Assembly: GCA_965207785.1 (NCBI GenBank)
Contig: CBDBNO010000011.1
Span: forward strand, 140,664 to 204,663
Direction of reading: 5' to 3'
Origin: Alphaproteobacteria bacterium
GTDB lineage: Bacteria > Pseudomonadota > Alphaproteobacteria > SP197
DNA length: 64,000 bases
Part shown: in pieces, positions 1,582 through 19,340 of the stretch
How positions within the stretch are numbered: position 1 is the first letter of the stretch
How the letters are laid out: every line of letters starts with the position of its first letter
Position numbers and translations under genes: made by a program
Notes under the pieces: model-generated
What the model was told of the DNA's origin: nothing
What the model saw: only the letters and a program-made list of their open reading frames with translations
The model's database searches: none

Positions 1582-2465
1582 GGACGCGTCGCGGACAAGC
1601 CATCGGCATCACCGGCCGAGATGCAACAGCTCACCAGCGTTCGTGCCTGATCGTAGGGCCAGGGTGTGCCGCGGTGCAGAGTGGCGCGCTCATCCCAAAC
1701 CAGCACGTCTCCCGGACGCCAGTGATGGGCATAGATATGGCCCGGTCCGGTCATGCGCTCGATCAGATCGTCGATGAACGTCTGGCCCTCGTCGTCGTCC
1801 ATGCCGCTCGCCGCAAAGGCATGCGAAGCGACATAGACCGCCTCGGCGCCGGTCACCGGGTTGCGCCACACCGCGCGCCATTCGGTATCCGGCCACATGG
1901 TGAAGAGGTCCAGTTTGGCCAGGTCCGGATCGATGCGGGCCCGTGAGTGACTGTAGCGATGGCGAAATGTCATGCTGCGCAACCGCCGCTGCATGGCTGG
2001 CTCGAGCGCCCCGAACCCGGCCCTGGTTGAAACGAACTCAGTGGCACCGCCCTTCTGCGGCACGACTCGCGCCTGCAGCACGTTGGCCAATGCCGGCGTC
2101 GGCAGGAAGGTGCTGTCGGTGTGCCAAAGCATGTTGGCTTTCAAGCCGAGCAGGCGCAGGTCGTCCTCATCGTAGACGCCGCCATCCTCGGTCTCGTTGC
2201 TGACGCCGTAGGATATGTGCGGCTCGCCATCCATGCGCGTGTTGGAGCGGTCTTCGATGGGCCCGAACAGCCGGCCGAAGGCGAGGTGCTCAAGGTCGTC
2301 GAGGTGCTGTTCCGCGAACAGCAACAGCGAATGCCGCTCAAACAGGGCACGGATTGCCGGGTACATGCGATCCGCCGTGACATCGCGCAAATCGACATCG
2401 TGCACCTCTACGCCAAACTCGGGATGCAACGGTGTCGTCTTCAGTCGATCCGCCTTCCCGCTCAT
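1578..2465 (-). CDS. TauD/TfdA-family Fe(II)/2-oxoglutarate-dependent dioxygenase
   Basis: 295 aa. HTD (HxD) iron ligands, C-terminal LHRGT, family-typical length and layout. Confidence 0.75.
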   Translation of the reverse strand: MSGKADRLKTTPLHPEFGVEVHDVDLRDVTADRMYPAIRALFERHSLLLFAEQHLDDLEHLAFGRLFGPIEDRSNTRMDGEPHISYGVSNETEDGGVYDEDDLRLLGLKANMLWHTDSTFLPTPALANVLQARVVPQKGGATEFVSTRAGFGALEPAMQRRLRSMTFRHRYSHSRARIDPDLAKLDLFTMWPDTEWRAVWRNPVTGAEAVYVASHAFAASGMDDDEGQTFIDDLIERMTGPGHIYAHHWRPGDVLVWDERATLHRGTPWPYDQARTLVSCCISAGDADGLSATRP

Positions 2466-2876: not shown

Positions 2877-4257
2877 TCAGATTTGAGCGACCGGGCGGCC
2901 GAGGGGAACAGCGGATTCCGGGAACCCGCAGGGCAGAAATTCGCCGCGTCCCGGCTCGGCCCGTATCTCGCCGTCCGCCCAGACCACTTCCCCGCGCGAC
3001 AGCGTGATGGCCGGCCATCCCGTGATGTTCATTCCCTCGTACGGCGTGTAGTCGACGTTGTGGTGCAGCAGGTCGTTGCTGATGGTCACCTCCCGCGAAT
3101 CATCCCAGATGACGATGTCGGCGTCGCAACCGACTGCGATCGTGCCCTTTTGCGGATAGAGCCCATAGAGCTTGGCGGGTGTCGTGGCTGTCAGTTCCAC
3201 GAATCGCTCGAGGCTGATGATGTTCTTGCCGACTCCCTCCGAGAAGAGGAGCGGCATGCGGGTCTCGACGCCCGGCACACCGTTCGGGATCCAGCGAAAC
3301 GAGGCGTCTTCGCCGCGCATCTTCTTTCCGCCGGGACCCTCGAAACGGGTCGGGGCATGATCGGAAGAAAACACGTCGAAGGTTCCGTTGCGAAGCCCAT
3401 CCCAGATCACCTGCTGGTTGGCCTTGTCCCGGGGCGGCGGGCTGCAGACGCACTTGGCGCCTTCGAAGCCGGGCTTGTCGAGGTCATCCTCGGTAAGGAA
3501 CAGGTACTGCGGACAGGTTTCCGCAAACAGCTTGAGACCGCGGGCACGGGCCCTGTGGATTTCGTCCACCACGTCACGAGCGGAAACGTGCACCAGCAGT
3601 ATCGGCACATCCAGGAGCTCGGCCAGGGTGATGGCCCGGTGCGTGCCTTCGCGCTCGACGGGCCGCGGACGGGAATGGGCATGGTACTTCGGCGCGATCT
3701 TGCCCGACTGCTCCAGCCGATCGGTCAGCCAGCTGATGCAGTCGCCATTCTCGGCATGCACCATCACGAAAGCCCGTTCGCGGCGCGCCAGCGCCAGCAC
3801 GTCCAGGATCTCGCGGTCATTCAGCATGAGGCCGTCGTAGGTCATGTAGATCTTGAACGAGGTGTAGCCGTCTCGGATCAATCCCGGCATTTCCTGGCCC
3901 AGGACGTGCTCGTTGGGATCAACGACGATCATGTGAATCGCGTAGTCGGTCATCGCTCGGTTCTCGGCGCGTCCGCGGTACTCGTTCACGGCCTCCCTGA
4001 GACTCTGGCCCCTGAACTGCAGGGCAAAGGGAATCACCGTGGTCGTGCCGCCGGCAAGCGCCGAGCGCGTGCCGGTCAGAAAGTCGTCGGCGCAGACCGA
4101 TCCATCCCTGCTGGGCTGATCGATGTGACAGTGGCTGTCGATGCCACCGGGGGTCACCGTTCGCCCCTCGGCGTCGATCACATGATCGGCGCCTTCCAGT
4201 GAATCCGCCAGCGCCGCGATGCGGCCTTCGCGGATGCCGATGTCACACCTGACGACG
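2877..4257 (-). pseudogene. D-hydantoinase/dihydropyrimidinase, 3' body of a split gene; missing its first ~18 codons, which lie at 14708..14760
   Basis: Annotated ORF gives ...PGGIDSHCH...; cyclic-amidohydrolase fold (HxH, KIYM, DHAP motifs). In-frame upstream reading gives VVRCDIGIREGRIAALADSLEGADHVIDAEGRTV, preceded by TAG and no start codon. The first in-frame start is an internal GTG at ~4182. Confidence 0.75.
4241..4257. repeat. 17-bp direct repeat TGTCACACCTGACGACG, left junction (attL core) of the integrated element
   Basis: Exact copy at 14691..14707. Flanking bases differ on both sides. Lies inside hydantoinase codons AVVRCD on the minus strand. Confidence 0.65.
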
Positions 4258-4372
4258 CACCTTCGGTGCTAAACAACTGATACAACGTAACGTTTTTCTC
4301 TCTCATGTGCAACTGCGGGACGTTTCCGCCACGGATTCTCCCGCCTCTGCAACTCATGACGAGAGGGAATCG

Positions 4373-5497
4373 ATGGCCGCGACCAAACTCACCCAGGCGC
4401 GCTTGCACGCGCTCCGGCCCCGCAAGACCGTCCGCGATGTCCGCGACGCCGAACTCAGGGGATTCGGCGTCCGTCTCTATCCGTCAGGGCGCAAGTGCTT
4501 CTTCATCCACAGCCAACACGAGGGGAAGAGGGTCTGGAAGATCGTCGGCGATGCCGCGTGCCTGAGCGTGGAAGACGCCAGGACCAGGGCCCGCTCCATG
4601 CTGGCAGCCGGCCGGCACGGCACGTCGGCAGCATCGGATCACATCCTGTTCGAGGAGGCGGCCGAGGAAGTCTTCCGCCGCTACGCCAGGAACTGGAAGC
4701 CCGGGACGCTCAGGGTCAACCGGGGTTACTTCGCCAACCAGATTCTTCCCTGGTTCCGGGGACGGCCGATTGCGGCCATCACGGCTGTGGATGTCCGGGA
4801 GTGGTTCGCCTCTCTCCATGCCACGCCGGTGGCGGCCGACCGGTCCGCTCCGGTGCTGTCCGTCATCATGGCCCAGGCGGAGGCCTACGGATACCGTCCC
4901 GAGGGCTCCAACCCCTGCCAGGGCATCAGGCGCTACCGGCGCAAGGGCCGGGAGCGCTTTCTTTCGGACGAGGAAGTCCGCCGGCTCGGGAGGGCGCTGC
5001 GCCGTCACGAAGAGCAATCGGGGATGCATGTGGCGATCATCCGTCTTCTCCTGCTGACCGGGTGCCGCAGTGCTGAGATCGTGACGCTTCGCTGGAGGGA
5101 GTACAGGGACGGTCATCTCCATCTCGCGGACTCCAAGACGGGGCCGCGCATGGTCTGGCTGTCGTCTCCGGCACGGACGATCCTGGACCGGCAACCCCGG
5201 ACGTCGCCGTGGGTCTTTCCTTCGGCCCGGACCGGCAGGTCCGTCGCGGCGGACGCCGTCGGCAAGTTCTGGCGGCAGCTTCGTCTGGAGGCTGGCCTGC
5301 GCGATGTCAGGCTGCATGACCTGAGGCACACATACGCCAGCATTGCCGTCATGACGGGGGAGAACGTGCTCACCGTCGGCCGGCTTCTCGGCCACAACGA
5401 TCCCGGCACGACACTGAAGTACACGCACCTTGCCGACGACGCGGTCGCCACGGCGGCCGAGGCGATGGGGCCCCTTCTCGCGAATGCCGCGTCATGA
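4373..5497 (+). CDS. tyrosine recombinase/integrase, P4-like with N-terminal arm-binding (DUF4102-type) domain
   Basis: MAATKLTQARLHALRPRKTVRDVRDAELRGFGVRLYPSGRKCFFIH matches the DUF4102 N-terminus. Catalytic box LLLLTGCRSAEIVTLRW, HDLRHTYAS, LGHNDPGTTLKYTHL (R, H-x-x-R, Y all present). The annotated ORF starts at 4307, but ATG 4373 better fits the family N-terminus. Confidence 0.85.
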   Translation: MAATKLTQARLHALRPRKTVRDVRDAELRGFGVRLYPSGRKCFFIHSQHEGKRVWKIVGDAACLSVEDARTRARSMLAAGRHGTSAASDHILFEEAAEEVFRRYARNWKPGTLRVNRGYFANQILPWFRGRPIAAITAVDVREWFASLHATPVAADRSAPVLSVIMAQAEAYGYRPEGSNPCQGIRRYRRKGRERFLSDEEVRRLGRALRRHEEQSGMHVAIIRLLLLTGCRSAEIVTLRWREYRDGHLHLADSKTGPRMVWLSSPARTILDRQPRTSPWVFPSARTGRSVAADAVGKFWRQLRLEAGLRDVRLHDLRHTYASIAVMTGENVLTVGRLLGHNDPGTTLKYTHLADDAVATAAEAMGPLLANAAS

Positions 5498-6645
5498 ACC
5501 GCCGGACAAGACTGACCGATGCCGTGATCCGGCGTCTCAAGCCCGGTTCTCGGGAATACACGGTCCGCGATACCGTGGTGCCCTCGCTGGGAGTGCGCGT
5601 GCATCCCTCCGGCGGCCGCGCCTATGTCCACGTCGCCGCGGGGCGGAAGGCATCGCTGGGTTTCGTGGCGCTCCGCACGGTCGAGGAGGCCCGTCGGGAG
5701 AGCCGTGCGCTGCTGGCGGATGGCATGCCAAAGAGGACGGCGGCGGCGCTCTTCCGGGACTTCGTCGCCGGTCCGTGGCGCCAGTCCTGGGTCCACCGGT
5801 GCAAGCCGTCGACGATCAGGTGGCGCGACGGACATCTCGACAAACGCCTTCTGCCGGCATTCGGCCACCTGCGCCTCGACCGCATGTCGCCGGCCGCGGT
5901 GACGAGATGGTTCGACGATTACAGCAGGACCGCTCCGGCCAACGCCAACCACTGCCTCTCGACCCTGCGCCACATCTTCAATCATGCGCTCGCCTGCGGG
6001 CATGTCGCCGCGAACCCCGTCCGCGGCGTCAGGCCCAACCCGCGCCGGAAGATCACCCGCTTCCTCTCCCGGGAGGAACTCGAGCGGCTGCACCGCGTTC
6101 TCGATCGCCATGCCGGCGTCGCAGCCATCAGACCGTCGCACCGCGACCAGATCGACATCATCAGGCTTCTTCTCCTGACAGGCTGCCGCAGGAACGAGAT
6201 CGTCCGCCTTCGCCGGGACGAGGTGGCCGGAACCCGTCTCCGGTTGCGCGACAGCAAGACCGGCCCCAGAACGGTGTTCCTGAACGCCGAAGCCCGGTCC
6301 ATCCTCGAACCAAGGCTGAAGGGCAGCCGGGAGTATCTGTTCACGTCGCCAAAGGATGCCGGACGGCCGCTCAATGAGAGGCTCCCGGTCTGGTACGCCG
6401 TCCGCAAGGAGGCAGGGCTTGAAGACGTCCGCCTCCACGATCTCAGACACACATATGCCAGTCATGCGGTCATGCAGGGAACGCCGCTTCCCGTCGTGGC
6501 GAGGCTCCTTGGTCACAGCAGGACGGCCATGACGCTGCGCTACGCCCACACCGGAGATGCCGAGACCGCGGCCGCCGCCGAGCGGATCGGCCGCGTCATC
6601 GCCGGACTCTGCGGATGCGCCGGCGACTCCGGCGCACCCGCCTGA
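5494..6645 (+). CDS. second tyrosine recombinase/integrase, paralog of the upstream gene, translationally coupled
   Basis: ATG overlaps the int1 TGA (ATGA at 5494-5497). LLLLTGCRRNEIVRLRR, HDLRHTYASHAVM, LGHSRTAMTLRYAHT; same domain layout as int1. Confidence 0.85.
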   Translation: MNRRTRLTDAVIRRLKPGSREYTVRDTVVPSLGVRVHPSGGRAYVHVAAGRKASLGFVALRTVEEARRESRALLADGMPKRTAAALFRDFVAGPWRQSWVHRCKPSTIRWRDGHLDKRLLPAFGHLRLDRMSPAAVTRWFDDYSRTAPANANHCLSTLRHIFNHALACGHVAANPVRGVRPNPRRKITRFLSREELERLHRVLDRHAGVAAIRPSHRDQIDIIRLLLLTGCRRNEIVRLRRDEVAGTRLRLRDSKTGPRTVFLNAEARSILEPRLKGSREYLFTSPKDAGRPLNERLPVWYAVRKEAGLEDVRLHDLRHTYASHAVMQGTPLPVVARLLGHSRTAMTLRYAHTGDAETAAAAERIGRVIAGLCGCAGDSGAPA

Positions 6646-6646
6646 C

Positions 6647-6664
6647 CCCGGGGCGCAGGCCCCG
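6647..6664. terminator. GC-rich hairpin CCGGGGC-gcag-GCCCCGG between convergent int2 and the adhesin gene
   Basis: 7-bp perfect inverted repeat with a 4-nt loop in the 67-bp convergent intergenic gap. No U-tract, as is common in high-GC genomes. Confidence 0.3.
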
Positions 6665-6712
6665 GGGCCGCGCGGGACCGTCCGCATCCATGACGCGGCG
6701 ATCACCGCCGCC

Positions 6713-9700
6713 TCACCAGCGGATGGCGAGATCGACCCCGATGCCGTGCTCCGCCCTGGCCGTGCCGCTCTCCCGGCGCGTCACCTTCACCCCAAACGAC
6801 AGGTCGGGCGCGCTCGCGCCCTCCGGCGTCAAGCGCCAGCCGAGGCTCCAGTCGCGCACGCCCGTGGCGAGCCCGAGGCCCGCATGCGGGCTGCCGGTCC
6901 AGCGCCCGCCGAAGGCCGGCAGGCCGTACGCCGCCTCCACCGCCCAGCGGGAGGTCGCCTCGCTGCCGGTGCGGTCCTCCAGCGTCTGCGGCTGGAACAG
7001 CGCGTCGAGACCGCCGGTGGCCCGGCCGCCGAAGTCATGGCGCAGGCTGAGCGACGCGCCCCGCTTCGTCGCCGGGGCCGGGTCGTATGCCAGCGCCGCC
7101 GCGAAGCCGCGGTCCTTCAGGTCGTCGTTGCCATGTGCGATGAGCGTACGGCCCGACAGGTCGAGCATGAGGCCCATGCCCGGATCGCTCCACCTGACGC
7201 CGCCGCCGGTCTCCACCCCGAAGCCGGTCTCCGCATCGCCGCCGTCATGGCGCGCGCCAAGCTCCAGCTTCGGCACGAGCGTGCCGCCGCCGTCGAGCGC
7301 GACATGGTAGCGGCCCTCAAGGCCGACCCGGAGCCGCGTCGCGTCGGAGTCCGACGCCGCGAGCCGGGCCGTCTTCTCCGAGGAGGTCCGCGTCCACAAG
7401 GCGTCCGAGGTCACCGCCAGCGCCGGGCCGGAGCCTTCCTGCGGGGCTTGGAGCAGGTCGCCCCGCAGCCCCGCCGCCGCCATGCTCCAGCTCGTGTCCG
7501 CGCTGTAGCGGCCGCCCAGTTCGGTCTTCAGCGTCACCTCGCCGGTGCCGTAGCCGGCCGCGCCCCAGAGCTTCAACCGCTCCGATGCCTGGAAGGCCGC
7601 ATAGGGGACCGCCGCCGTCAGCGACGCCTCCACCGTGCCGTCGCCCTCCCGCACCGCGCCCCGGCACAGCTCGGCCGCCTCGGCCGGGCAGTCCTGCGAG
7701 GCGGCGCGGGCCGCGATGTCCGTGTCGCGGTAGTCGCCCTCGCCGTCGCTCTGCGCCAGCGCAAGGCCGACCAGCCACCTGCCCCGGGCATAGTCCGCCC
7801 CCAGCATGCCGGTGGTGACCGTGCCGTCGAGCGAGAAGGTGCCCTCAGCACCATCGAAGCGCGCTTGCGCCGCCCGGCCCCAGAACGCCATGCTGCCGCC
7901 CGAGGAGTCCTTCTCGCCCGTCAGCGAGAAGCTGGAGCCCAGCAGCGCGTCGCGCGCCGTCATGGTGCGCGACTGCGCCGGGGTTTGACCGAAGCCGATC
8001 CCGCCTGTCCCGGAGACCGATCCGGGGCCGCCCGCGCTGCCGCCGAAGCCGCGCGCGATCTCCGCCATGGCCAGCGCCGCCTCGCCGTCGGGAGACCCCG
8101 CGGACCCGAGGTCCGGCCCGCCGCTGCCGGAAGGCGCCGGGTTGAGGTTGACCGCCTGTCCGGCGATCGCGCCCTGCATGCCGGGCGTGCGCGGCGCGGA
8201 CATCCGCCCCGCGATCCCGTCCAGCGCCTGCTCCGCCACCGTGCGACCGAACCGCGCCAGCCACGCCGCCGGCATCGGGTCGTCGTTGACGATGGTGCCC
8301 ACCGCAACCCCGTCGCCGATAACCGCACCCCGCGCCTTCGACAGCACCACCTCGAAGGTCTCCGCCCCCTCGTCATGGCTGTCGTCGTAGATCCGGATCC
8401 ACACCACCTTCTCCGTCTCCCCCGCCTGGAACGTCAGGTCGGAGCTGCCCGGCGCGTAGTCCCGGCCCGGCTCCGCCGACACCGGCGTCGACGGCCGCGT
8501 CGAGACATACACCCGCACCGGCGCGGGCGCCGGCGACGACAGACTCACCGTGAACGGCATCACCGGCAGGCGGCCGCCCTCCTTCGCCGTCGAGTCGCCC
8601 ACCGACAGCGCAGGCACCGTCGAAGGCACGTCGTCGTCCTTCACCTCGACCGACGCCGAGGCCGGATCGCCCACCGTGTAGCCCGCGCCGGCCTCGACCG
8701 TCACCACCGCCGCGCCGTCCGGCTCGTCGGCGTCGTCGTTCACCGTGGCGACGATGAACGACGCCTCCGTCGCGTCATTCGGGATCGTCACCGTGGCCGG
8801 ACCCTCGTCCGCCGCCGCCACGTGGTCGCCGTCCCCGGTCTCGGAGACCGCGAGCGTCACCGTCAGGTCGGCGTCCGGCGCGCGGTCGGCGGTGAGCGTG
8901 AACACCGCATCGCCGCCCTCGCTCACCGAGGCCGCCTTCGCCGCGATCGTCACCACGGGCGGCGGCAGGTCGTCGTCGCGCACCGCGACCGTGGCGTAAG
9001 CCGAAGCGCCGACCGTGTAGCCGCTGCCGTCCGTCACCGTCGCCGTGACCGAGCCGTCCGGCTCGTCCGCGGCGTCGTCGGTCGTCGCCAGGGTCAGCGT
9101 CGCGCTGCCGGTCGTGGGGATGGTGACCGTCTGCGTCCCGGCGGTCACGCCCCAGTCGCCGTCGGCCGCCACGCTCACGCTGACCGCCAGGTCCGCCGCC
9201 GGGGCGGGGGTCGCCGTCAGCGTGAACACCGCATCGCCGCCCTCCGTCACCGAGGCCGCCTTCGCCGCGACGGTCACCTCGGGCAGGGCCGCGTCGTCGT
9301 CACGCACCGCCACGGTGCCCGACGCCGGGTCGCCCGCCGTCCAGCCGCTGCCGTCCGCCACCGTCACGGTGACCGAGCCGTCGGGCTCGTCCGCGGCGTC
9401 GTCGGTCGTCGCCAGGGTCAGCGTCGCGCTGCCGGACGTGGGGATGGTGACGGTCCGGCTGCCGGCGGTCACGCCCCAGTCGCCGTCGGCCGCCACCGTC
9501 ACGCTGACCGCCAGGTCCGCCGCCGGGGCCGGGGTCGCCGTCAGGGTGAACACCGCGTCGCCGCCCTCGGTCACCGCGCTTCCCGCCGAGACCGCGATCT
9601 CCGGCGGGGTCAGGGGCGGCGTGTCGGGCGGCGTGTCGGGCGCCGCCGCCAGCTTCTCCAGCGCCTCGACGATCCGCGGCCACAGCGGGCTACTGTATTT

Positions 9701-12694
9701 CTGCGCATTCGCCTTCGCCTCCGCCAGCGTGGTCGGCGTCAGGCCGGGATACTCCTCCACGCCGAACGCCACCAGCACGCGCCGCCAGCGCTTCACATGC
9801 GCCGCGCCGTGCTGCGTCTGCGCCGCCATCGCGCGCACCTCCGCGACCAGCGCCGGGTCCACCGCCGCAACCGCCGGCGCCGCATCGTCGTCGTCCCGCA
9901 CGGAGACCGTGCCGGAGCCGGACGAGCCCACCGTGTAGCCGCTGCCGGCCGCCACCGTCACGGTGACAGAGCCGTCCGGCTCGTCCGTGGAATCGTCGCC
10001 GGTCGTCAGCGTCAGCGTGGCGCTGCCCGACGCCGGGATGGTCACCGTTTGCGTGCCGGCGGCGACGCCCCAGTCGCCGTCCGACGCCACCGTCACGCTG
10101 ACCGCAAGGTCCGCCGCCGGGGCCGGGCTCGCCGTCAGGGTGAACACCGCATCGCCGCCCTCCGTCACCGCGCTCCCCGCCGACACCGCGATCTCCGGCG
10201 TCTGCTGTTGCGGCTGGTCCTGCCCCTGCTCAAGCGACGACAGGTACACCGAGGCCGCCCAGAACGGGCTCGACGGCCACTTCGCCGCGTTCTCGTGGAT
10301 CTCGGAGGCCGGCATCGCCTCCTCCGGGCTCGCCGTATAGCCGATCGACGCCAGCACCCGGTTCCACTTCCTGATGTGCGCGGGATTGCCCTTCACCGCC
10401 TTGTTCGCCGGGTTGTCCCGCGCCGCGATCAGATGGTCCACCACCGTCTGGTAGTCGGTCCAGTCCGGCGCGCCCTGCCCGGGCTCGTGGTTGAGGATCC
10501 TGATCGCCGAGCGCACCGGCGTGAACGGCTGATAGCCGCCGCTCGCCTCCAGATGCACCGTGACCCACTCGCCGCTGTCCTCCGCCGAATCGTCGATAAT
10601 CGTCACCGGAATGACCGCCGTCGTCGCGCCCGGCGGCACCGTGACCGTCGACGGAACCGTGTAGTCGACGCCCCGCGTCGCATTGCCCGACAGCCTGTAG
10701 TTCAGGGTGAAGTCCGCACTCGGCGCCGGGTTGACCGCCACCACCAGGTTCACCGTCCCGGCCGTGCTCTCCCGCACCTGCCGCGAGTTGGTCACGAAGG
10801 ACACCTTGCGGGCGACCGAGTCGTCGTCGCGCACCGTCGCCTCCGCCGCCGCCCGGTGCGGGAAGGTGTGCCCGCCCACGGACAAGCCGTTCGTGTCGAT
10901 GGTGTAGCCGAAACGGCTCCCCGCCGGCACCACCGTCGTGACCGTCCCGTCCGCCGGCACCGTGCCGTCGGCCCGCGCCAGCGACGCCCGCACCGTGCAG
11001 TCCGGCTCCGCGGTGCCGTCGTTCACCGTCGGCACGGTCAGGACCGTGCTCCCGACCCGCGGCGCGAAGTAGACCTCGTGGCGCTTCGCGTTCCCCGGCG
11101 CCAGGCAGTTGCCGGTCTGCCCCACCTTCAGATGCACCGTGAACGGCCCCTGCGCCGGCGACGGGGCACTGACCTCGAAGTGGACGGGCTTCCCCTCCGC
11201 CACGCCGCCGTCGAGCGCCTGCGGGTGCCACTGCCTGACCGTGACCGTCGGGACGACGTTGCCCGCCGAGCCGTCCGGGCCGTCCTTGATCGTGATCCAG
11301 TACGGATCGTTGGTGACGACCCCGAAGGGCGGCGGGTTGCCTTCGCCCCAGCTGCCGACCGGGCCGGAGAACATCAGCATCCTGCGCACGTCGCTCTCGA
11401 CCAGGGTGGAAGGCGAGATCCGGAGAAGCGCAGTCTTGCTCTTCTCGCCGACGGCAAAGGTCAGGGGGGTGAGCCACTGGTGTGCATGGACGCCCGGCTG
11501 CACGTAGGCGTTCACGGCGATCTGCCGGGTCGCCGCCACGGGGATGAACCCCACCCCCTTCTCCAGCGCCGGGCGGACGAGCCGCGCATTGATGATGATG
11601 TCGCTGCCGGCGGGTGCCTCCGTAATCTCGCATTCGCGGCCGGTGCACGAGCCGCCGACAGGAACAATGCTGTCCACGATGACCAGCGGCGGGCCCGGCG
11701 AGGGCGTGTAGGGCAGCTCCTCCAGCAGCCTGATCTCGCCGTCGCCCGAGCGGCTCGACGAGGCCACCGTCACCCCCGTCGAGGTCACCGTGCCCAGGCT
11801 CACCGTCACCGTCTCGTCGTCGTCGGTGTTGTCCGGAGCGGCCTGCACCTCCAGCGTGGCCGCGGCGACCGACGGGCCGGTGAAGGTCACCGTGCTCCCG
11901 GACAGCGACACCCCCGTGAACGTGCTCGTCAGGAACAGGCTGAAGTCCGCGGGCCGCGAGGCGCCGGCGAAGTTCAGCGGAACCGTCACCGTCTCGCCGC
12001 TCACCAGCGCACGGCTCAGCGCCACGCGGATCTGCGCCACGTTGTTGGCGTCGTCCTCAACCGCAAGGTCGTCCGGGATCGACAGGGTGAGGGTGAAGGG
12101 TGGCTTGACCACGCCGCCGAGGCTGATTTTCAGGGGTACCGTGACGGTGGCCCATGCGCCTGTTGAATTCCATTGTCTACGCAAAGCGTTGTTACCGATG
12201 CTCCAGCCGGCCAGGGCTCCGCTGTCCTCGTTGTTCGAATCCGTGCTGCGTAGGTCCGACGAACCTCTATTGGAGCTCATATCGATCACAAGGAAGTACG
12301 TGGTACCGGCCGCAAGGTCGATGCCCGTGCTCGTGAAGGTCAGCGTCTGGTCCGAGTTGGAGTTGGTGAAGGCGGGGTTGGTCAGGGTCCCGAGAGAACT
12401 GCCCGGAGACCCGCTGGATTCGGAGTGGATGCTGGCGGTGAGCTGCGAAGAAGTAATATTGCTGATCGTGGAAAATTCCACTTCGACGCTGCGCAGGCTG
12501 TAACCTTCGCTGTTGCTGCCGGTCGTGAACGCCATGGCGTAATCGGTGCTCAAACCATATGCGGCTCCGTCTGCCTGACCGACGTTGCTGACAAAGGTCT
12601 GCGTCGTCTGCGCCTCGGCCCCGGTCGGCAGGGCGGCCAGCAGCGGCAGGGCGAGCAGCGCGGCGGCGAGGACCGGGCGCAGGCCGCGCCCCAA
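6713..12694 (-). CDS. giant type Va autotransporter adhesin (1,993 aa) with multiple Calx-beta domains and C-terminal beta-barrel translocator
   Basis: TTG start. Signal peptide MGRGLRPVLAAALLALPLLAALPTGAEA/QT. Repeated Calx-beta motifs (TEGGDAVFTLT...DDAADEPDGSVTV; GNATRGVDYTVP...IIDDSAEDSGEWVTVHL). C-terminal ~300 aa is a classic autotransporter beta-domain (MAFWGRAAQARFDG...LGADYARGRWLVGLALAQSDGEGDY...GIGVDLAIRW) ending in W. Confidence 0.85.
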   Translation of the reverse strand: MGRGLRPVLAAALLALPLLAALPTGAEAQTTQTFVSNVGQADGAAYGLSTDYAMAFTTGSNSEGYSLRSVEVEFSTISNITSSQLTASIHSESSGSPGSSLGTLTNPAFTNSNSDQTLTFTSTGIDLAAGTTYFLVIDMSSNRGSSDLRSTDSNNEDSGALAGWSIGNNALRRQWNSTGAWATVTVPLKISLGGVVKPPFTLTLSIPDDLAVEDDANNVAQIRVALSRALVSGETVTVPLNFAGASRPADFSLFLTSTFTGVSLSGSTVTFTGPSVAAATLEVQAAPDNTDDDETVTVSLGTVTSTGVTVASSSRSGDGEIRLLEELPYTPSPGPPLVIVDSIVPVGGSCTGRECEITEAPAGSDIIINARLVRPALEKGVGFIPVAATRQIAVNAYVQPGVHAHQWLTPLTFAVGEKSKTALLRISPSTLVESDVRRMLMFSGPVGSWGEGNPPPFGVVTNDPYWITIKDGPDGSAGNVVPTVTVRQWHPQALDGGVAEGKPVHFEVSAPSPAQGPFTVHLKVGQTGNCLAPGNAKRHEVYFAPRVGSTVLTVPTVNDGTAEPDCTVRASLARADGTVPADGTVTTVVPAGSRFGYTIDTNGLSVGGHTFPHRAAAEATVRDDDSVARKVSFVTNSRQVRESTAGTVNLVVAVNPAPSADFTLNYRLSGNATRGVDYTVPSTVTVPPGATTAVIPVTIIDDSAEDSGEWVTVHLEASGGYQPFTPVRSAIRILNHEPGQGAPDWTDYQTVVDHLIAARDNPANKAVKGNPAHIRKWNRVLASIGYTASPEEAMPASEIHENAAKWPSSPFWAASVYLSSLEQGQDQPQQQTPEIAVSAGSAVTEGGDAVFTLTASPAPAADLAVSVTVASDGDWGVAAGTQTVTIPASGSATLTLTTGDDSTDEPDGSVTVTVAAGSGYTVGSSGSGTVSVRDDDDAAPAVAAVDPALVAEVRAMAAQTQHGAAHVKRWRRVLVAFGVEEYPGLTPTTLAEAKANAQKYSSPLWPRIVEALEKLAAAPDTPPDTPPLTPPEIAVSAGSAVTEGGDAVFTLTATPAPAADLAVSVTVAADGDWGVTAGSRTVTIPTSGSATLTLATTDDAADEPDGSVTVTVADGSGWTAGDPASGTVAVRDDDAALPEVTVAAKAASVTEGGDAVFTLTATPAPAADLAVSVSVAADGDWGVTAGTQTVTIPTTGSATLTLATTDDAADEPDGSVTATVTDGSGYTVGASAYATVAVRDDDLPPPVVTIAAKAASVSEGGDAVFTLTADRAPDADLTVTLAVSETGDGDHVAAADEGPATVTIPNDATEASFIVATVNDDADEPDGAAVVTVEAGAGYTVGDPASASVEVKDDDVPSTVPALSVGDSTAKEGGRLPVMPFTVSLSSPAPAPVRVYVSTRPSTPVSAEPGRDYAPGSSDLTFQAGETEKVVWIRIYDDSHDEGAETFEVVLSKARGAVIGDGVAVGTIVNDDPMPAAWLARFGRTVAEQALDGIAGRMSAPRTPGMQGAIAGQAVNLNPAPSGSGGPDLGSAGSPDGEAALAMAEIARGFGGSAGGPGSVSGTGGIGFGQTPAQSRTMTARDALLGSSFSLTGEKDSSGGSMAFWGRAAQARFDGAEGTFSLDGTVTTGMLGADYARGRWLVGLALAQSDGEGDYRDTDIAARAASQDCPAEAAELCRGAVREGDGTVEASLTAAVPYAAFQASERLKLWGAAGYGTGEVTLKTELGGRYSADTSWSMAAAGLRGDLLQAPQEGSGPALAVTSDALWTRTSSEKTARLAASDSDATRLRVGLEGRYHVALDGGGTLVPKLELGARHDGGDAETGFGVETGGGVRWSDPGMGLMLDLSGRTLIAHGNDDLKDRGFAAALAYDPAPATKRGASLSLRHDFGGRATGGLDALFQPQTLEDRTGSEATSRWAVEAAYGLPAFGGRWTGSPHAGLGLATGVRDWSLGWRLTPEGASAPDLSFGVKVTRRESGTARAEHGIGVDLAIRW

Positions 12695-12861
12695 GCGGCG
12701 GGCGGCATGGCGGACGCCAGCAGCGGCGCGGGCGGCGGGAAGGTCGCGACTGTCGGGAGTGTCGTGATGCCCCCGGTTAGAGAGACCGGGGCAGGCAGAA
12801 GAAGAAGCGTCAGGCGGGGAGGCTAGCGGGCGAAAGCGGTCCCGTACGCAAGACGCAGGTT

Positions 12862-12979
12862 GGGCGACCCGGCGACCCGGCGACCCGGCGACCCGGCGAC
12901 CCGGCGACCCGGCGACCCGGCGACCCGGCGACCCGGCGACCCGGCGACCCGGCGACCCGGCGACCCGGCGACCCGGCGA
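12862..12979. repeat. perfect tandem repeat of the 8-bp unit GGCGACCC (about 14.7 copies), 168-285 bp upstream of the adhesin start codon
   Basis: Read directly: gggcgaccc ggcgaccc ... ggcgacc. It produces artefactual repeat peptides (PGDPATRR / GSPGRRVA) in two ORF-track entries. Confidence 0.9.
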
Positions 12980-13321
12980 CCATTATACCGCCGGCATCAT
13001 CCCGGTTTGTCAAGCCGTCGGGTGAGCGGATGTCGCTCGCCCCGCCGTCCGGAGCCCCCGCGAGCGCAACCTTCGCCGCGCGCAAAATGTCACCGATCCT
13101 GTCCAACATGGTCATCGCATTGGTCCCCAACTCTGTCGCCCGGCAGGCCCCGCAAGGCACACGCCCGCCGGTCAACGCCTGTTCCATCGGCAATTCGTAA
13201 GCGGATTCCGGCGGCAACGCAAACACGGATCGTCCAAGACCACCCTGATCGGCGAGCTGTCGTCGGGTTCGGCCACGTTGAGCGCACACCGGCGCCAGCA
13301 TCATCTGGCCATCGTGCCAGC

Positions 13322-13555
13322 CCTGCGAACGCCCGTTCGGAGACCCGGTACCTCTCGCGCAACTCGGCCGTCATCATGGCACGGTTGAAGAGCCACGCTG
13401 ACCTGCTCGACATGGTCTCGGGGGCGATGGTGCCGGTCATCAACGGTTGCTGCAATCTCTACCACCCCTGCCAGGCACTCGCGGACGTGCTGACTATCGC
13501 GGCGGACCGGCGCGGGGATCCCGGTGGCGCACGCCGCCTGACCTACGTCGGCGGG
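13322..13555 (+). pseudogene. ornithine/aspartate carbamoyltransferase internal fragment (~78 codons), gene relic
   Basis: ETRYLSRNSAVIMARLKSHADLLDMVSGAMVPVINGCCNLYHPCQALADVLTIAADRRGDPGGARRLTYVGG matches the OTC core (VPVING..HPCQALAD...YVGD). Sequence on both sides is unrelated. No start or C-terminal domain. Confidence 0.55.
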
Positions 13556-13694
13556 TTGCGGTTGAGCGCGCGATCGACCAGCAGCTTCGACATCGACACG
13601 CCCTCGCGCTCCGCCAGGGCGCGGATGCGCTCCCGTTCGAGACGGCTGCACGAGATCGAGTGCATGGTGGCTCTCTCCTCGACGCGCCGGCCCG

Positions 13695-14027
13695 TCATGG
13701 TCCCGGCCTCCCGGCGTCCTGCCGCGCCTGGAATTCCCGGGCCGCAAGGTAGAGGAACGACAGCGCCTCCATGGCGGTGACGTCGCTCCCCGGCAAGGGC
13801 TCCATCAATTCCTCGAGAAGAAGCAGGGTGCGGTTCACCCGATTGAGAAGGTCGCGCTGTTCGGATTCCGAGAGCACCAGGCGCATGTCGTCCTCGTCCT
13901 CCAGGGCGCAGGCGACCATGAAGCGCGAGATCGGCATCTTCGCCGCCTTGGCCCGCCGGCCGATCTCCGCCCAGTCGCTCGGGCGGCAGCTGACGCTGAA
14001 CAGCTGGTTGCGTCTCACGGTCGTGAC
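13695..14027 (-). CDS. small ribbon-helix-helix (CopG/MobC-N-terminal-like) DNA-binding protein, ~111 aa, GTG start
   Basis: VTTVRRNQLFSVSCRPSDWAEIGRRAKAAKMPISRFMVACAL... fits the RHH pattern (beta-strand, then A..G.S.S.y.r). Paralog of the next gene. Start inferred by alignment to the paralog. Confidence 0.45.
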   Translation of the reverse strand, partial: VTTVRRNQLFSVSCRPSDWAEIGRRAKAAKMPISRFMVACALEDEDDMRLVLSESEQRDLLNRVNRTLLLLEELMEPLPGSDVTAMEALSFLYLAAREFQARQDAGRPGP

Positions 14028-14347
14028 TCCTTCCCCTCGATCTCGACCTCGGCCTTCAGCAGGGACTCGATCTCCTCCTCGATCGCCTGCCAGGCCTCCG
14101 CTTCTCCGGCGCGCTCGAAGCGATGGCGCTCGATGCGGGCCAGCACCATGAGGTGATGCGCAAGGCGCCACTGCAGGTCGGCCGGAAGACCGGCCGGTTG
14201 GGGTGGTCTTGTGGTCAGCATCTGCTGCACAGCGTAGCGCGAGATGGGCATGTCGAGGGCCTTCGCGCGCTCGCCGATCCGGGCCCACTCGCTGTCTGAT
14301 GCCATGATGGTGCGCGCCTTGCGCCGCGGATCCTTCGCGTTCATCAT
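14015..14347 (-). CDS. small ribbon-helix-helix DNA-binding protein, ~111 aa, paralog of the downstream gene
   Basis: MMNAKDPRRKARTIMASDSEWARIGERAKALDMPISRYAVQQML...; shares the SDxEWAxIGxRAKAxxMPISRxxV core with the neighbour. Overlaps it by ~12 nt. Confidence 0.45.
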   Translation of the reverse strand: MMNAKDPRRKARTIMASDSEWARIGERAKALDMPISRYAVQQMLTTRPPQPAGLPADLQWRLAHHLMVLARIERHRFERAGEAEAWQAIEEEIESLLKAEVEIEGKESRP

Positions 14348-14690
14348 GGACTCGGTGGCCGGTGGTGGGAACGACGTAAGGGGGCCGTGATGGTGTGTTC
14401 TGGCGGATGTTCGCGTGATGTACTGGACAGAATCACCATGGTCTGCATTGGTATCCATTGTGTGTGATTGTCATGCATTGACGGTGTTCCGGAGCATATA
14501 GGCGATGGAAGAAAGTCTACGTATGACTTCCCCGAATGCAACTGTGGCTCTACGGATCGCTATGCATGTATAGATCTGATGTCGTCCGTGGTACTTGACA
14601 TGGCCGTATTCCGCGCGTAATTAGCGTGACTTGGAGAGAGAGATGCCTTTTGGTGTTTCGATTACATGTATACATGTCGTCAAATTTCTC

Positions 14691-14707
14691 TGTCACACCT
14701 GACGACG
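14691..14707. repeat. 17-bp direct repeat TGTCACACCTGACGACG, right junction (attR core)
   Basis: Exact match to 4241..4257. Preceded by a 230-bp AT-rich tract. Confidence 0.65.
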
Positions 14708-14760
14708 GCGGCTGATGTCGCCACCCTACCTCCCCGAACGATGGTATCGAATCTGCTCAC
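14708..14760 (-). pseudogene. displaced 5' end of the hydantoinase gene (start codon plus ~18 codons)
   Basis: Minus strand: AGGAGA ribosome-binding site, GTG at 14760..14758, then SRFDTIVRGGRVATSAAVVRCD running into the 17-bp repeat. Joined to 4240.., this gives MSRFDTIVRGGRVATSAAVVRCDIGIREGRIAALADSLEGADHVIDAEGRTVTPGGIDSHCH, a textbook hydantoinase N-terminus. An upstream in-frame TGA fixes the start. Confidence 0.65.
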
Positions 14761-14808
14761 GTGTCTCTCCTCTCATTCCTGGCGGCATGACGGACCGGCA
14801 GGCGAGCC

Positions 14809-15924: not shown

Positions 15925-16660
15925 TGCCGGTTTCGAAGACGCTGACCCGAAGCGGATAGACCGGAATCTCCACCTCTCTCCACCCTCGTGGCTCTACCGT
16001 TCCGTCCCCGTAAGGACAGATCGAGATCGCGACAACCTGCTCGATCTCGGCGTAGAACTCAATGTAATCGCCAACCTCGGCATCGCTGGTTCCGAATACG
16101 TAATCGCCGCTGCGAGGTTCGATGGCGACCTTGTAGAACAGGTTGAGATTGTCGTGGACCGCGTGCTGGCCGAAACCCATCATCGCCATTCCCGCGCGCA
16201 GGTTGTCGTAACAGGTTCTCGGGTGAACGCCGGCATACTGCACCCAGTGATGTGCGTTGCAGTGAGCAGCGTGGGAAATGTGGTCACGAGCATGATCGCC
16301 GTTGTCATGCCAGCGCACGGTGTCAGCCAGGCAGGTGCACAGGGGCCTCGAACGCGGGGGCGTTCCCCAAACCCGTGTGAACTTCTTGATACGGCCCCCC
16401 TCGAGGGCGATTTGAGCGGCCGGAAAATAGTGCTCGCTCGGGTCGTCCGGGTTCATCACGCAAACGTCCAGGGCATTCGTGCCTTCAACCACCGTGAGGC
16501 GCCACACTTGGCCTGCACTCACCCTGAAGCCGTAGCCGCTGCCGCGCGGCATCTCGTGCTCGAACACCGTTTGGAAGGACTCCCGGCGCGAGATCACGCC
16601 CTCGTAGAAGCCTGTGTCGAAGGAGTGTTTCTCCCGCACCATGGGTGCTGGTTCGGCCAT
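15890..16660 (-). CDS. conserved hypothetical protein, DUF1989-like (urea-carboxylase-associated family); tentative
   Basis: 256 aa, paralog of the next ORF. Shared motifs (..VxDxxAFNPxDPxE...FTRxWG...RPLxTxxxDTV). Confidence 0.4.
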   Translation of the reverse strand: MAEPAPMVREKHSFDTGFYEGVISRRESFQTVFEHEMPRGSGYGFRVSAGQVWRLTVVEGTNALDVCVMNPDDPSEHYFPAAQIALEGGRIKKFTRVWGTPPRSRPLCTCLADTVRWHDNGDHARDHISHAAHCNAHHWVQYAGVHPRTCYDNLRAGMAMMGFGQHAVHDNLNLFYKVAIEPRSGDYVFGTSDAEVGDYIEFYAEIEQVVAISICPYGDGTVEPRGWREVEIPVYPLRVSVFETGIAPRPWQPLGS

Positions 16661-16662
16661 GT

Positions 16663-17550: not shown

Positions 17551-17577
17551 GAACGCGTGCCGGTCCCATCCGGCGCG

Positions 17578-18374
17578 TCAATCGTCTGCATTGACCATAG
17601 CTTCATGGCGCATCATGCGCATGATCTTTCGGTCCAGTCGGCCATACTCCGGATCTGTCAGAATATCTTCCTTCTGGCGAAACTTCATCTCGCGCTTGAA
17701 CGCCACGGGGATGTCTTCGAGAACCTTGCCCGGGTGACGAGTCATGAAGATGATTCGATCCGCCAGGAAAATCGCCTCGTGAATATCATGGGTGACCAAC
17801 AGCACCGTGGTGTTCGATTTCTCGATGACTTCCAGGAGCAACTCCTGCATCCGCCAGCGGGTCTCGGCATCAAGCGCACCAAAGGGTTCATCCATAAGCA
17901 GAAGCGCGGGATCGTTCGCCAGGGTCCGGGCGATCGCGACCCGCTGTTTCATGCCCCCGGACAACGCTTTGGGAAAGACATGCCTGAATCGCGTCAGATC
18001 GACGAGATCGATGAAGTGGGCCGCGCGTTCGGCACGTTCGGCCTTGCCCATGCCCTGCAGCCTGAGGCCGTATTCGACGTTCTGCTGGACATTCAACCAC
18101 GGAAATGAGGTGTACGTCTGGAAGATCATTCCGCGGTCAGGACCCGGCCCGGTGATCTCCGTCCCATGCAGGTAAATCGCTCCCCGGGTGGGTTCCTCGA
18201 GGCCGGCGACGAGGCGCAGCATGGTCGACTTCCCGCAGCCGGACGGTCCCAGCAACACGCACGATTCGTTCTTGGCGACGCTGAAGGACATGTCCGACAA
18301 TGCGGTGATACTGGCGTCACCGTTCAACTGAAAGTCCTTCGTGACGCGGTCGACCACCAACATGACCTTGTCGC
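17578..18374 (-). CDS. ABC transporter ATP-binding protein, NitT/TauT (SsuB/TauB-like) family
   Basis: Walker A GPSGCGKST, signature LSGGMKQRVAIARTL, Walker B LLLMDEPFGALD. Start taken at MLVVDRVTKDF; the annotated ORF extends further upstream. Confidence 0.8.
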
Positions 18375-18407
18375 TTTGCGAGTCCAAGCGTGACTGCCCC
18401 CGTTCGT

Positions 18408-19241: not shown

Positions 19242-19340
19242 GTCTGCCGTCCTATCTCCCGCTTCCTGAGACGACGGACTCCCGACTCGCGCAGCGGGCG
19301 CTTGAAATCGATCGTCGCGCCGGCACAGGCGGACAAAGGC

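What the first reader, a model, noticed from the sequence alone, without database searches (positions are those of the whole stretch)
2877..14760. Hydantoinase gene split by the insertion; the start codon and first 18 codons are stranded 10.4 kb away
At the right junction the minus strand reads AGGAGA, then GTG, then SRFDTIVRGGRVATSAAVVRCD into the repeat. At the left junction the frame continues CVVRCDIGIREGRIAALADSLEGADHVIDAEGRTVTPGGIDSHCH. Joined, this is MSRFDTIVRGGRVATSAAVVRCDIGIREGRI..., which matches the conserved hydantoinase/dihydropyrimidinase N-terminus. At the left junction the reading frame upstream of the body hits TAG with no start codon, so the body can only initiate at an internal GTG (~4182) and would lack the first beta-strands. 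This amidohydrolase of the cluster is probably inactivated. The locus also has two HyuA/HyuB pairs and a CodA-like amidohydrolase, which may explain why the loss was tolerated.
Basis: seen in the sequence. Interest (0 to 1): 0.6.

Follow-up and report, generated by a model that had tools for sequence, protein, structure and literature searches.

The report
Dihydropyrimidinase gene split by integrase island
A 10.45-kb mobile island carrying two back-to-back integrase genes has inserted into codon 18-24 of a dihydropyrimidinase (D-hydantoinase) gene and almost certainly switched it off; this is an ordinary kind of event, but the island belongs to a little-studied two-integrase family.

Summary
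An exact 17-bp direct repeat (CGTCGTCAGGTGTGACA, minus strand) lies at 4241-4257 and 14691-14707. This ORF passes the NCBIfam dihydropyrimidinase cut-off over its full length and models onto D-hydantoinase 1NFG (TM 0.93).

A relative (L001, 97% aa identity) has the gene intact, with one copy of the 17-mer and colinear flanks, so L001 is an empty site.

The insert is a tyrosine-recombinase genomic island:
- two translationally coupled P4-like integrases (IntA, IntB) at one end;
- foreign high-GC cargo, a 1993-aa Calx-beta surface protein;
- two NikA-like ribbon-helix-helix genes;
- an AT-rich distal arm.

A second, divergent island of the same family (IntA 58% identical) sits at the same site in another metagenome (L014). 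The site is therefore a recurrent attB.

The stranded body has no in-frame start before GTG 4181. A product starting there would lack beta-strands 1-3 and part of 4, so the gene is most likely inactive. The halves are undecayed (dN/dS 0.057), so precise excision would restore the gene.

The gene disruption is ordinary. The two-integrase family is the modestly novel part.

The parts
14680..14760 (-). Stranded 5' stub of the dihydropyrimidinase gene. GTG start at 14760-14758; codons 1-23 are native; then R-E-I-TGA is read from the island (26 codons in all).
   Evidence: aligns to the L001 intact gene
14766..14771 (-). Shine-Dalgarno-like AGGAGA, 5 nt upstream of the GTG start.
   Evidence: conserved in L001
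14691..14707 (.). Direct repeat copy at the integrase-distal junction (17 bp, exact).
4241..4257 (.). Direct repeat copy at the integrase-proximal junction (17 bp, exact).
   Evidence: present once in the empty site at L001 10054-10070
2877..4257 (-). Body of the dihydropyrimidinase gene (codon 18 third base to the stop). The first canonical in-frame start is GTG 4181, giving the 434-aa ORF 2877-4181.
4269..4271 (-). In-frame TAG that closes the body's reading frame on the island side.
4258..14690 (.). Inserted island: 10,433 bp unique sequence plus one repeat copy, 10,450 bp in all. GC is 70% against 62-65% in the flanks.
4257..4269 (.). Family-conserved palindrome GCACC-N3-GGTGC, abutting the repeat. 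It forms part of the conserved end (C/A)ACACC-N6-CGCACC-N3-GGTGCTAA.
4373..5497 (+). intA: 374-aa tyrosine integrase with an Arm-DNA-bind_3 N-terminal domain.
5494..6645 (+). intB: 383-aa tyrosine integrase, 38% identical to IntA. Its start overlaps the intA stop by 4 bp.
6713..12694 (-). Cargo: 1993-aa secreted surface protein. It has a signal peptide, a choice-of-anchor R domain and Calx-beta repeats of 108 aa. A C-terminal beta-barrel-like region is suggested only by sequence pattern.
   Evidence: Pfam finds nothing in the C-terminal 515 aa
12863..12981 (.). Perfect tandem array (GGCGACCC) x 14.9, about 170 bp upstream of the surface-protein start codon.
13328..13552 (+). Internal fragment of an ornithine carbamoyltransferase gene (about residues 105-177), a pseudogene remnant inside the island.
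13695..14288 (-). NikA-like ribbon-helix-helix ORF (the real start is probably near 14030).
   Evidence: 26.2 bits, just under the Pfam cut-off of 27
14015..14458 (-). Second, paralogous ribbon-helix-helix ORF (weak NikA-like match).
   Evidence: (repeat D14)
14459..14690 (.). AT-rich distal arm (46.6% GC). It holds TGCAACTG at 14537-14544 and the perfect palindrome ACATGTATACATGT at 14664-14677.
4308..4315 (+). TGCAACTG in the proximal arm. This is the only other copy in the window, so the two copies are candidate arm-type sites.

Best explanation
A circular 10.45-kb genomic island integrated by tyrosine-recombinase site-specific recombination into a 17-bp core that lies in codons 18-24 of a chromosomal dihydropyrimidinase (D-hydantoinase) gene.

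Shown:
- The gene is cut in two. Its promoter, ribosome-binding site and first 23 codons now sit 10.45 kb from the remaining 459 codons.
- The island carries two translationally coupled integrase genes at one end, unrelated cargo in the middle and an AT-rich arm at the other end.
- A relative has the unoccupied site.
- A divergent island of the same family occupies the same site in another sample.

Inferred:
- Strand exchange happened inside the 17-bp identity. It contains the family-conserved half-site CACACC, a 6-nt variable spacer, and the first two bases of the conserved CGCACC-N3-GGTGC palindrome.
- IntA and IntB act together, possibly helped by the two ribbon-helix-helix proteins and the TGCAACTG arm sites.
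- The gene is off. The stub makes only a 26-residue peptide. The body has no in-frame start before GTG 4181. A product starting there would lack beta-strands 1-3 and part of 4 of the beta-sandwich that packs against the C-terminal strands.
- The repeats are identical and both halves are undecayed, so precise excision would regenerate a working gene.
For: - Exact 17-bp repeat found only at the two junctions.
- The joined ORF is in frame and 477 aa long. It passes the NCBIfam dihydropyrimidinase cut-off over its full length.
- It aligns to 1NFG from residue 5. The AlphaFold model has pLDDT 94.8 and Foldseek TM 0.93/0.97 to 1nfg_A.
- Empty site L001: intact 477-aa gene, one copy of the 17-mer, both flanks colinear at 88-94% nt identity.
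- 26 orthologues cluster at >=90% identity. Of the members whose lengths were listed, 13 are 477 aa; the short ones are this window's ORF (434 aa), L014's (460 aa) and a 466-aa call that I read as a later-start call (not checked).
- Both integrases hit Pfam Phage_integrase and keep the catalytic R / HxxR / H / Y residues.
- The IntA-IntB pair, with its 4-bp overlap and conserved end sequence, recurs in 12 other loci with different cargo.
- L014 has a family member with only 58% IntA identity at the same position and orientation, in a host gene 92.9% identical.
- Island GC is 70%, against 62-65% in the flanks.
- dN/dS between the joined gene and L001 is 0.057, with no frameshift or stop.
- No in-frame start lies between TAG 4271 and GTG 4181.
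- Model strands are at residues 4-14, 19-27, 30-35 and 41-46.
Against: - No direct evidence of excision, of a circular form, or of loss of enzyme activity.
- No comparably long direct repeat was found for other family members within the 10 kb fetched. The general size of the core is therefore unknown, and the 17-bp identity may be unusually long.
- The half-sites CACACC and CGCACC are in direct, not inverted, orientation. This does not fit the textbook core-site layout, so the cleavage positions are guesswork.
- An outward-reading promoter in the island end, as reported for GInts (PMC5385486), cannot be excluded. The consensus scan found none, but that scan is weak evidence.
- Rare starts exist (CTG 4211 and 4199; ATC 4241, 4235 and 4220).
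Confidence: 0.88

Rival explanations
1. The split is a regulated, reversible switch. The island excises under some condition and restores the dihydropyrimidinase gene, as the skin element does for sigK or the nifD element does in heterocysts (my own knowledge of those systems).
For: - Perfect repeats and undecayed gene halves.
- Both integrases are intact.
- The same site is used by two divergent islands.
Against: - Of the >=90%-identity orthologues whose lengths were listed, 13 are intact at 477 aa and only two are cut at this site, so occupancy is the exception.
- Other family members sit at unrelated sites: inside a KshA-like gene, or about 25 bp upstream of a luciferase-like gene.
- There is no evidence of regulated excision, and no sign that the island's presence is conserved with the gene.
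Confidence: 0.07
2. The 5'-truncated ORF is still expressed and functional, either from GTG 4181 or from a rare start codon. The gene would then be remodelled rather than lost.
For: - A 434-aa ORF remains and retains all the metal ligands H60, H62, K153, H185, H241 and D317.
- A weak GGAAGG lies 10 nt upstream of GTG 4181.
- GInt islands are reported to drive transcription out of their integrase end (PMC5385486).
Against: - The missing 43 residues form strands 4-14, 19-27 and 30-35 and part of 41-46 of the beta-sandwich in a high-confidence model. They are conserved across 81 homologues.
- No promoter-like site was found at 4100-4500.
- All intact orthologues start at the same position.
Confidence: 0.06
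3. The 17-bp repeat is a target-site duplication made by a transposase rather than a shared att core.
For: The empty site has one copy of the 17-mer and the occupied site has two. On its own, this is also what a duplication would look like.
Against: - No transposase is present in the island; the only recombinases are two tyrosine integrases.
- There are no terminal inverted repeats.
- Part of the 17-mer (CACACC ... CG) is conserved next to the island end in independent insertions at other targets. This fits an attP/attB core, not a random duplicated target.
- 17 bp is longer than the usual duplications (established knowledge).
Confidence: 0.04

Closest known systems
GInts (genomic islands with three integrases; Bardaji et al. 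2017, PMC5385486)
   Same: - A multi-integrase operon sits at one end, variable cargo in the middle and a short AT-rich far end.
- Insertion is site-specific, into the 5' end of a protein-coding gene, and is flanked by short direct repeats.
- The att sequence partly tracks the target.
   Different: - GInts need three integrases plus the small GinD protein. This island has two integrases, and only 67 bp lie between intB and the next gene.
- GInt integrases are Cre/Xer-like. IntA here carries a P4-type Arm-DNA-bind_3 domain.
- GInt repeats are 10-11 nt and imperfect. Here the repeat is 17 nt and perfect.
- Homology to GinA, GinB or GinC was not tested.
P4/SXT-type integrase genomic islands and dusA-associated integrase islands (PMC4482086)
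   Same: - A tyrosine integrase with an N-terminal arm-binding domain lies next to one att site.
- Integration is into the 5' end of a conserved protein-coding gene.
   Different: - Those elements use one integrase.
- From my own knowledge, dusA islands carry a replacement 5' end that keeps the target gene readable. This island supplies no in-frame start in the window, so the target is broken.
Tn554 family (TnpA and TnpB tyrosine recombinases plus TnpC)
   Same: - Two different tyrosine recombinases are encoded side by side.
- A short junction sequence varies with the insertion site (my own knowledge of Tn554).
   Different: - There is no tnpC-like third gene.
- IntB is 383 aa, whereas TnpB is about 630 aa.
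- Both proteins here are P4-like.
- Tn554 makes no flanking repeat.
Gene-interrupting excisable elements (skin in sigK, the nifD/fdxN elements, the comK prophage)
   Same: A coding gene is split by an element bounded by short direct repeats, and precise excision restores the gene.
   Different: Those elements are fixed in their lineages and excise on a developmental cue. Here most relatives have the gene uninterrupted, and no regulation is known.
D-hydantoinase / dihydropyrimidinase (1NFG, 3SFW, 3DC8)
   Same: - The joined ORF has the full-length profile match, the fold and the metal ligands of this family.
   Different: In this genome the gene is interrupted after codon 23.

Membership tests
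Dihydropyrimidinase / D-hydantoinase (NCBIfam NF009941, TIGR02033) | Full-length profile match above the curated cut-off. | tested here: met
   Joined ORF: NF009941 758.8 bits (cut-off 647), model positions 2-470 of 478; TIGR02033 537.1 bits (cut-off 393).
Dihydropyrimidinase / D-hydantoinase (NCBIfam NF009941, TIGR02033) | Binuclear-metal ligands: HxH, carboxylated Lys, His, His, Asp. | tested here: met
   H60, K153, H185, H241 and D317 are invariant in 81 homologues and H62 is nearly invariant (>=90%). They align with 1NFG. Their assignment as ligands comes from established knowledge of the family.
Dihydropyrimidinase / D-hydantoinase (NCBIfam NF009941, TIGR02033) | TIM-barrel plus beta-sandwich fold. 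| tested here: met
   AlphaFold pLDDT 94.8; Foldseek to 1nfg_A gives TM 0.93/0.97 and rmsd 1.3.
Dihydropyrimidinase / D-hydantoinase (NCBIfam NF009941, TIGR02033) | One uninterrupted, translatable gene in this genome. | tested here: not met
   The gene is split at 4257 / 14691 by 10,450 bp, with no in-frame start before GTG 4181.
Dihydropyrimidinase / D-hydantoinase (NCBIfam NF009941, TIGR02033) | Hydrolysis of dihydrouracil or hydantoins. | not testable with these tools
   An enzyme assay is needed.
Tyrosine-recombinase integrative genomic island | Integrase with the catalytic R, HxxR, H and Y residues. | tested here: met
   Phage_integrase domain: IntA 68.6 bits, IntB 72.6 bits. The IntA alignment to XerA 5HXY shows R, HxxR, GH and Y conserved. 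The same motifs are visible in IntB.
Tyrosine-recombinase integrative genomic island | Flanking direct repeats that equal a single copy in an unoccupied site. | tested here: met
   17-bp repeats; one copy in L001, with colinear flanks.
Tyrosine-recombinase integrative genomic island | Excision to a circle carrying attP. | not testable with these tools
   This needs reads from the sample or PCR.
GInt (PMC5385486) | ginABCD operon: three integrases plus a small helix-loop-helix protein. | tested here: not met
   Only two integrase ORFs are present, and 67 bp separate the intB stop (6645) from the next gene's end (6713). The same two-gene module is found in the related loci.
GInt (PMC5385486) | Short AT-rich far end; insertion in the 5' end of a gene; short flanking repeats. 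| tested here: met
   The distal 232 bp are 46.6% GC against 70% for the island. The insertion lies in codons 18-24, with a 17-bp repeat.
GInt (PMC5385486) | Sequence homology to GinA, GinB or GinC. | not tested
Tn554-like transposon | tnpA, tnpB (about 630 aa) and tnpC gene set. | tested here: not met
   IntB is 383 aa, and no third small gene follows it.
P4/SXT-type arm-binding integrases | N-terminal Arm-DNA-bind_3 (DUF4102) domain. | tested here: inconclusive
   IntA scores 30.4 bits (cut-off 27), which is met. IntB scores 19.5 bits, below the cut-off.
Integrative mobilizable element | Relaxase and/or oriT with relaxosome accessory proteins. | tested here: inconclusive
   No relaxase was found. 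Two NikA/MobA-like ribbon-helix-helix ORFs score just under the cut-offs (24-26 bits against 27).

The most novel reading that the evidence does not exclude
The island represents an undescribed class of two-integrase elements, in which IntA and IntB work as an obligate hetero-pair (Xer-like) on an asymmetric core, CACACC-N6-CGCACC-N3-GGTGC. The class spreads between phyla in sponge-type microbiomes with defence and adhesin cargo. The 5' end of this dihydropyrimidinase gene is a preferred attB whose occupation reversibly switches pyrimidine/hydantoin catabolism off.
Probability: 0.15. Interest if true: 0.65.

Novelty: new variant of a known kind. Interest (0 to 1): 0.35.

Why it matters
The gene disruption matters little by itself. 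It removes one step of reductive pyrimidine or hydantoin breakdown in one strain, while nearly all close relatives keep the gene.

The wider value is the vehicle. It is a compact module: a conserved end, intA and intB. IntA homologues are often present several times per genome, and the complete module was confirmed at 13 loci (12 related loci plus this window). These loci carry very different cargo, including restriction and defence genes, pentapeptide proteins and a giant adhesin, in metagenome-assembled genomes assigned to several phyla. More distant pairs occur in cultured Shewanella.

If the two integrases are both required, this would be a simpler relative of the three-integrase GInts. 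It would also be a tractable system for asking why some islands use more than one recombinase and how their target choice drifts.

Tried and rejected
- Megablast of the right flank against PLSDB plasmids gave no match, so there is no sign that the window is a known plasmid.
- The first AlphaFold run used an 8-sequence alignment and gave pLDDT 39.6. It was discarded and repeated with 81 sequences.
None was a hydantoinase or an island junction; all were chance matches.
- Searches for a second copy of the junction core downstream of the integrases in 12 related loci found nothing convincing. I tried exact 9-mers and longer, and 18-mers with up to 3 mismatches. The far ends of those islands therefore remain undefined. 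An 8-bp CACCGACA candidate in L009 is unverified.
- The source contig could not be fetched through IntA or its paralogue on the same contig.
- BLAST of the whole island against the related loci showed that only 4244-6590 is shared. The distal arm is not conserved at the DNA level among the loci held.
- Pfam at E <= 1 found no autotransporter or other domain in the last 515 residues of the surface protein.
- Consensus promoter scans at both junctions found nothing.
- Literature searches for tandem or paired tyrosine integrases with arm domains found only Xer, GInt and unrelated work.
- I considered a tRNA att site. ARAGORN's only call in the window lies far from the island.

Full report
**1. 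The observation**

The minus strand at the right junction reads AGGAGA (14771-14766), then five bases, then GTG (14760). It continues SRFDTIVRGGRVATSAAVVRCD and, inside the insert, R-E-I-stop. At the left junction the same frame reads TAG (4271-4269) HRRC VVRCDIGIREGRIAALADSLEGADHVIDAEGRTVTPGGIDSHCH.

The shared sequence is an exact 17-mer, CGTCGTCAGGTGTGACA, at 4241-4257 and 14691-14707. It occurs nowhere else in the window, even with two mismatches allowed, and none of 100 shuffles gave two matches.

Removing one repeat copy and everything between the copies (10,450 bp) gives a 1434-nt ORF of 477 codons with a single terminal stop. Between the TAG and GTG 4181 there is no ATG, GTG or TTG in frame, only ATC and CTG codons. 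The gene caller used on the source assembly also settled on the 434-aa ORF that starts at 4181 (P0256, on a 654,708-bp contig).

**2. What the joined gene is**

- The joined protein scores 758.8 bits against NCBIfam NF009941 dihydropyrimidinase (cut-off 647), over model positions 2-470 of 478. It scores 537 bits against TIGR02033.
- Its best solved relative is D-hydantoinase 1NFG (E = 3.6e-128), aligned from residue 5, so the alignment crosses the junction.
- With an 81-sequence alignment, AlphaFold gives pLDDT 94.8. Foldseek places the model on 1nfg_A with TM 0.93/0.97.
- The metal ligands expected for the family are conserved in the 81 homologues: H60, K153, H185, H241 and D317 are invariant and H62 is nearly invariant.
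- The N-terminal strands in the model are at residues 4-14, 19-27, 30-35, 41-46 and 51-54. A product starting at V44 would lose the first three strands and part of the fourth.

**3. Proof that this is an insertion**

The closest database protein, P0001, is 97% identical and 477 aa long. It lies on a 4.13-Mb contig (L001).

- L001 carries the 17-mer once, at 10054-10070.
- A three-way alignment shows L001 following the window's right junction up to the repeat and the left junction after it.
- L001 10054-11434 matches window 4257-2877 at 93.7% identity. L001 8582-9886 matches window 16096-14791 at 88.5%.
- The Ldh_2 gene lies upstream and the cytosine-deaminase-like gene downstream in both.

In the cluster of 26 orthologues at >=90% identity, 13 of the members whose lengths were listed are 477 aa. 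Nei-Gojobori dN/dS between the joined gene and L001 is 0.057 (dS 0.26), and there is no frameshift or stop. The insertion is therefore recent relative to that divergence, or the island is lost again often.

**4. What the insert is**

From the left junction inward, the insert contains the following.

- A conserved end carrying the palindrome GCACCTTCGGTGC (4257-4269).
- intA (4373-5497, 374 aa) and intB (5494-6645, 383 aa). The two genes overlap by 4 bp.
  - Both have the Phage_integrase catalytic domain.
  - IntA passes the Arm-DNA-bind_3 cut-off.
  - Both keep the R / HxxR / H / Y residues.
- On the other strand, a 1993-aa protein (6713-12694) with a signal peptide, a choice-of-anchor R domain and Calx-beta repeats.
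- A perfect (GGCGACCC) x 14.9 array.
- A 75-residue internal fragment of an ornithine carbamoyltransferase gene.
- Two paralogous NikA-like ribbon-helix-helix ORFs.
- A 232-bp arm of 46.6% GC that ends at the second repeat copy.

The island as a whole is 70% GC, against 62-65% for the flanks. It has no transposase, no relaxase and no tRNA gene nearby.

**5. The island belongs to a family**

IntA has thousands of homologues. Many are exactly 374 aa, and there are often several per genome: four each on a 4.71-Mb and a 4.14-Mb contig, and a second copy at 82% identity on the same source contig.

In the 12 related loci that I could read, the following held.

- IntA is followed by IntB with the same 4-bp overlap.
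- Orthologous pairs are more alike than the paralogues are. For the window against L002, IntA is 61% and IntB 52% identical, whereas IntA and IntB are 38% identical to each other.
- Only the end-plus-integrase module (window 4244-6590) is shared at the DNA level.
- The cargo differs: an Mrr nuclease in L009, GmrSD with GIY-YIG and a helicase in L012, and a pentapeptide protein in L084.
- The end reads (C/A)ACACC-N6-CGCACC-N3-GGTGCTAA, followed by conserved arm sequence up to the intA start.

TGCAACTG, part of that conserved arm, occurs only twice in the 64-kb window. One copy lies in each arm of the island.

The record titles assign the related contigs to an unclassified bacterium, Chloroflexota, Alphaproteobacteria and Paracoccaceae bins. 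Protein names add Delta- and Gammaproteobacteria. Binning of mobile DNA is unreliable, so cross-phylum spread is a lead, not a result.

A more distant pair (43% IntA identity, 4-bp overlap) sits on the Shewanella oneidensis MR-1 megaplasmid, with a CCACACC motif upstream.

**6. The site is used repeatedly**

L014 is a 4.7-kb contig from another sample. It has intB and intA directly upstream of the hydantoinase body, in the same orientation as in the window. Its host gene is 92.9% identical to the window's, but its IntA is only 58% identical. These are therefore two different islands, not one inherited insertion.

Its junction is ...AGCACCTAAGGTGCG|CGTCAGGTGTGACATCGG, one base shorter than the window's ...GGTGCG|TCGTCAGG.... 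That single base puts the island's GTG in frame in L014, where the gene is called as a 460-aa 'MRVRCD...' protein (P0254). In the window the same GTG is out of frame and runs into TGA.

Other family members sit elsewhere. One lies across the 3' part of a KshA-like gene. Another lies about 25 bp upstream of a luciferase-like gene. L002 has a pair 1.9 kb upstream of an intact orthologue in which the site reads GTACGTTGTGACA and lacks the CACACC motif.

**7. Mechanism**

Shown: the two junctions, the empty site, the intact integrase genes, and the family-conserved end.

Inferred: the circular island carried attP, ...AAATTTCTC-TGTCACACCTGACGACG-CACCTTCGGTGC.... It recombined with attB, ...GATGCCGA-TGTCACACCTGACGACG-GCGGCTGA..., somewhere inside the 17-bp identity.

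CACACC and the terminal CG of the 17-mer are conserved across the family, while the six bases between them vary with the insertion. That variable stretch is therefore the likely overlap region. This resembles the target-tracking att variants described for GInts (PMC5385486). Whether IntA and IntB each bind one side is not known.

**8. Consequence for the gene**

The stub can make only a 26-residue peptide. The body lacks a start, a ribosome-binding site and a detectable promoter. From GTG 4181 it would lack conserved strands of the beta-sandwich. I rate loss of function at about 0.8.

Those genes exist but belong to other enzyme families. No second dihydropyrimidinase is present in the window.

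**9. Comparison with known systems, and verdict**

The architecture is closest to GInts: an integrase operon, cargo, an AT-rich end, and insertion in the 5' end of a gene. It fails the defining GInt feature of three integrases plus GinD. It also resembles single-integrase P4-type and dusA-type islands, and the two-recombinase Tn554, without meeting their gene sets.

A gene broken by an integrative island is an ordinary event. The two-integrase module and the repeated use of one site by divergent members make it a variant worth noting, not a new kind of system. Interest is 0.35.

Noticed in passing
window 12863-12981: A perfect tandem array (GGCGACCC) x 14.9 lies about 170 bp upstream of the TTG start of the 1993-aa surface-protein gene. 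The unit is not a multiple of 3. Slippage could change promoter spacing (phase variation), but this is untested.
   Followed up: partly
window 13328-13552 (+): A 75-residue internal fragment of an ornithine carbamoyltransferase gene (aligned to about residues 105-177 of OTC structures) lies inside the island. It may be captured flanking DNA from an earlier host or a decayed cargo gene.
   Followed up: partly
window 16097-32591: A 16.5-kb block is present here but absent from the relative L001, where Ldh_2 lies next to the cupin gene. The block holds two DUF1989 genes, an ABC transporter, both HyuA/HyuB pairs, NMT1, an aminotransferase, GST, DUF3830 and a cupin. It has no integrase. Whether it was gained here or deleted there is unknown.
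   Followed up: no
window 1578-2465 (-): A TauD-family dioxygenase gene lies between the hydantoinase and the cytosine-deaminase-like gene. It is missing at this position in L001 but present in L084, so gene content around the locus varies between close relatives.
   Followed up: no
L014 2440-2710: A second island of the family (IntA 58% identical) occupies the same hydantoinase site. Its junction is 1 nt shorter, which puts the palindrome's GTG in frame and yields a called 460-aa ORF beginning MRVRCD.
   Followed up: yes
L002 3669-8000: A related intA-intB pair lies 1.9 kb upstream of an intact 86%-identical hydantoinase orthologue, next to a helicase C-terminal fragment that may itself be a cut gene. 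The hydantoinase site there reads GTACGTTGTGACA, without the CACACC motif.
   Followed up: partly
L012 9143-9904; L013 9820-9900: Other family members disturb other genes. In L012 a KshA-like Rieske oxygenase ORF runs across the junction and stops inside the island end. In L013 the island sits about 25 bp upstream of a luciferase-like monooxygenase start codon.
   Followed up: partly
one search hit table (contigs of 654,708, 4,144,807 and 4,709,096 bp): IntA homologues are multi-copy. A second copy at 82% identity is on the window's own source contig, and four distinct copies are on each of two multi-megabase contigs. This abundance resembles that of a transposon.
   Followed up: no
L085 (NC_004349.1 32496-34993): The Shewanella oneidensis MR-1 megaplasmid carries a distant tandem integrase pair (43% IntA identity, 4-bp overlap) with a CCACACC motif upstream. 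It is a cultured host in which the module could be tested.
   Followed up: partly
window 8859-9576: The surface-protein gene contains 324-bp (108-aa) tandem repeats at 87% identity, corresponding to its Calx-beta-like modules.
   Followed up: no
window 46040-46132 (+): ARAGORN calls a 93-nt tRNA-Ala(GGC) inside a region covered by a called Ala-racemase-N / D-serine dehydratase ORF on the other strand. It is probably a false positive.
   Followed up: no
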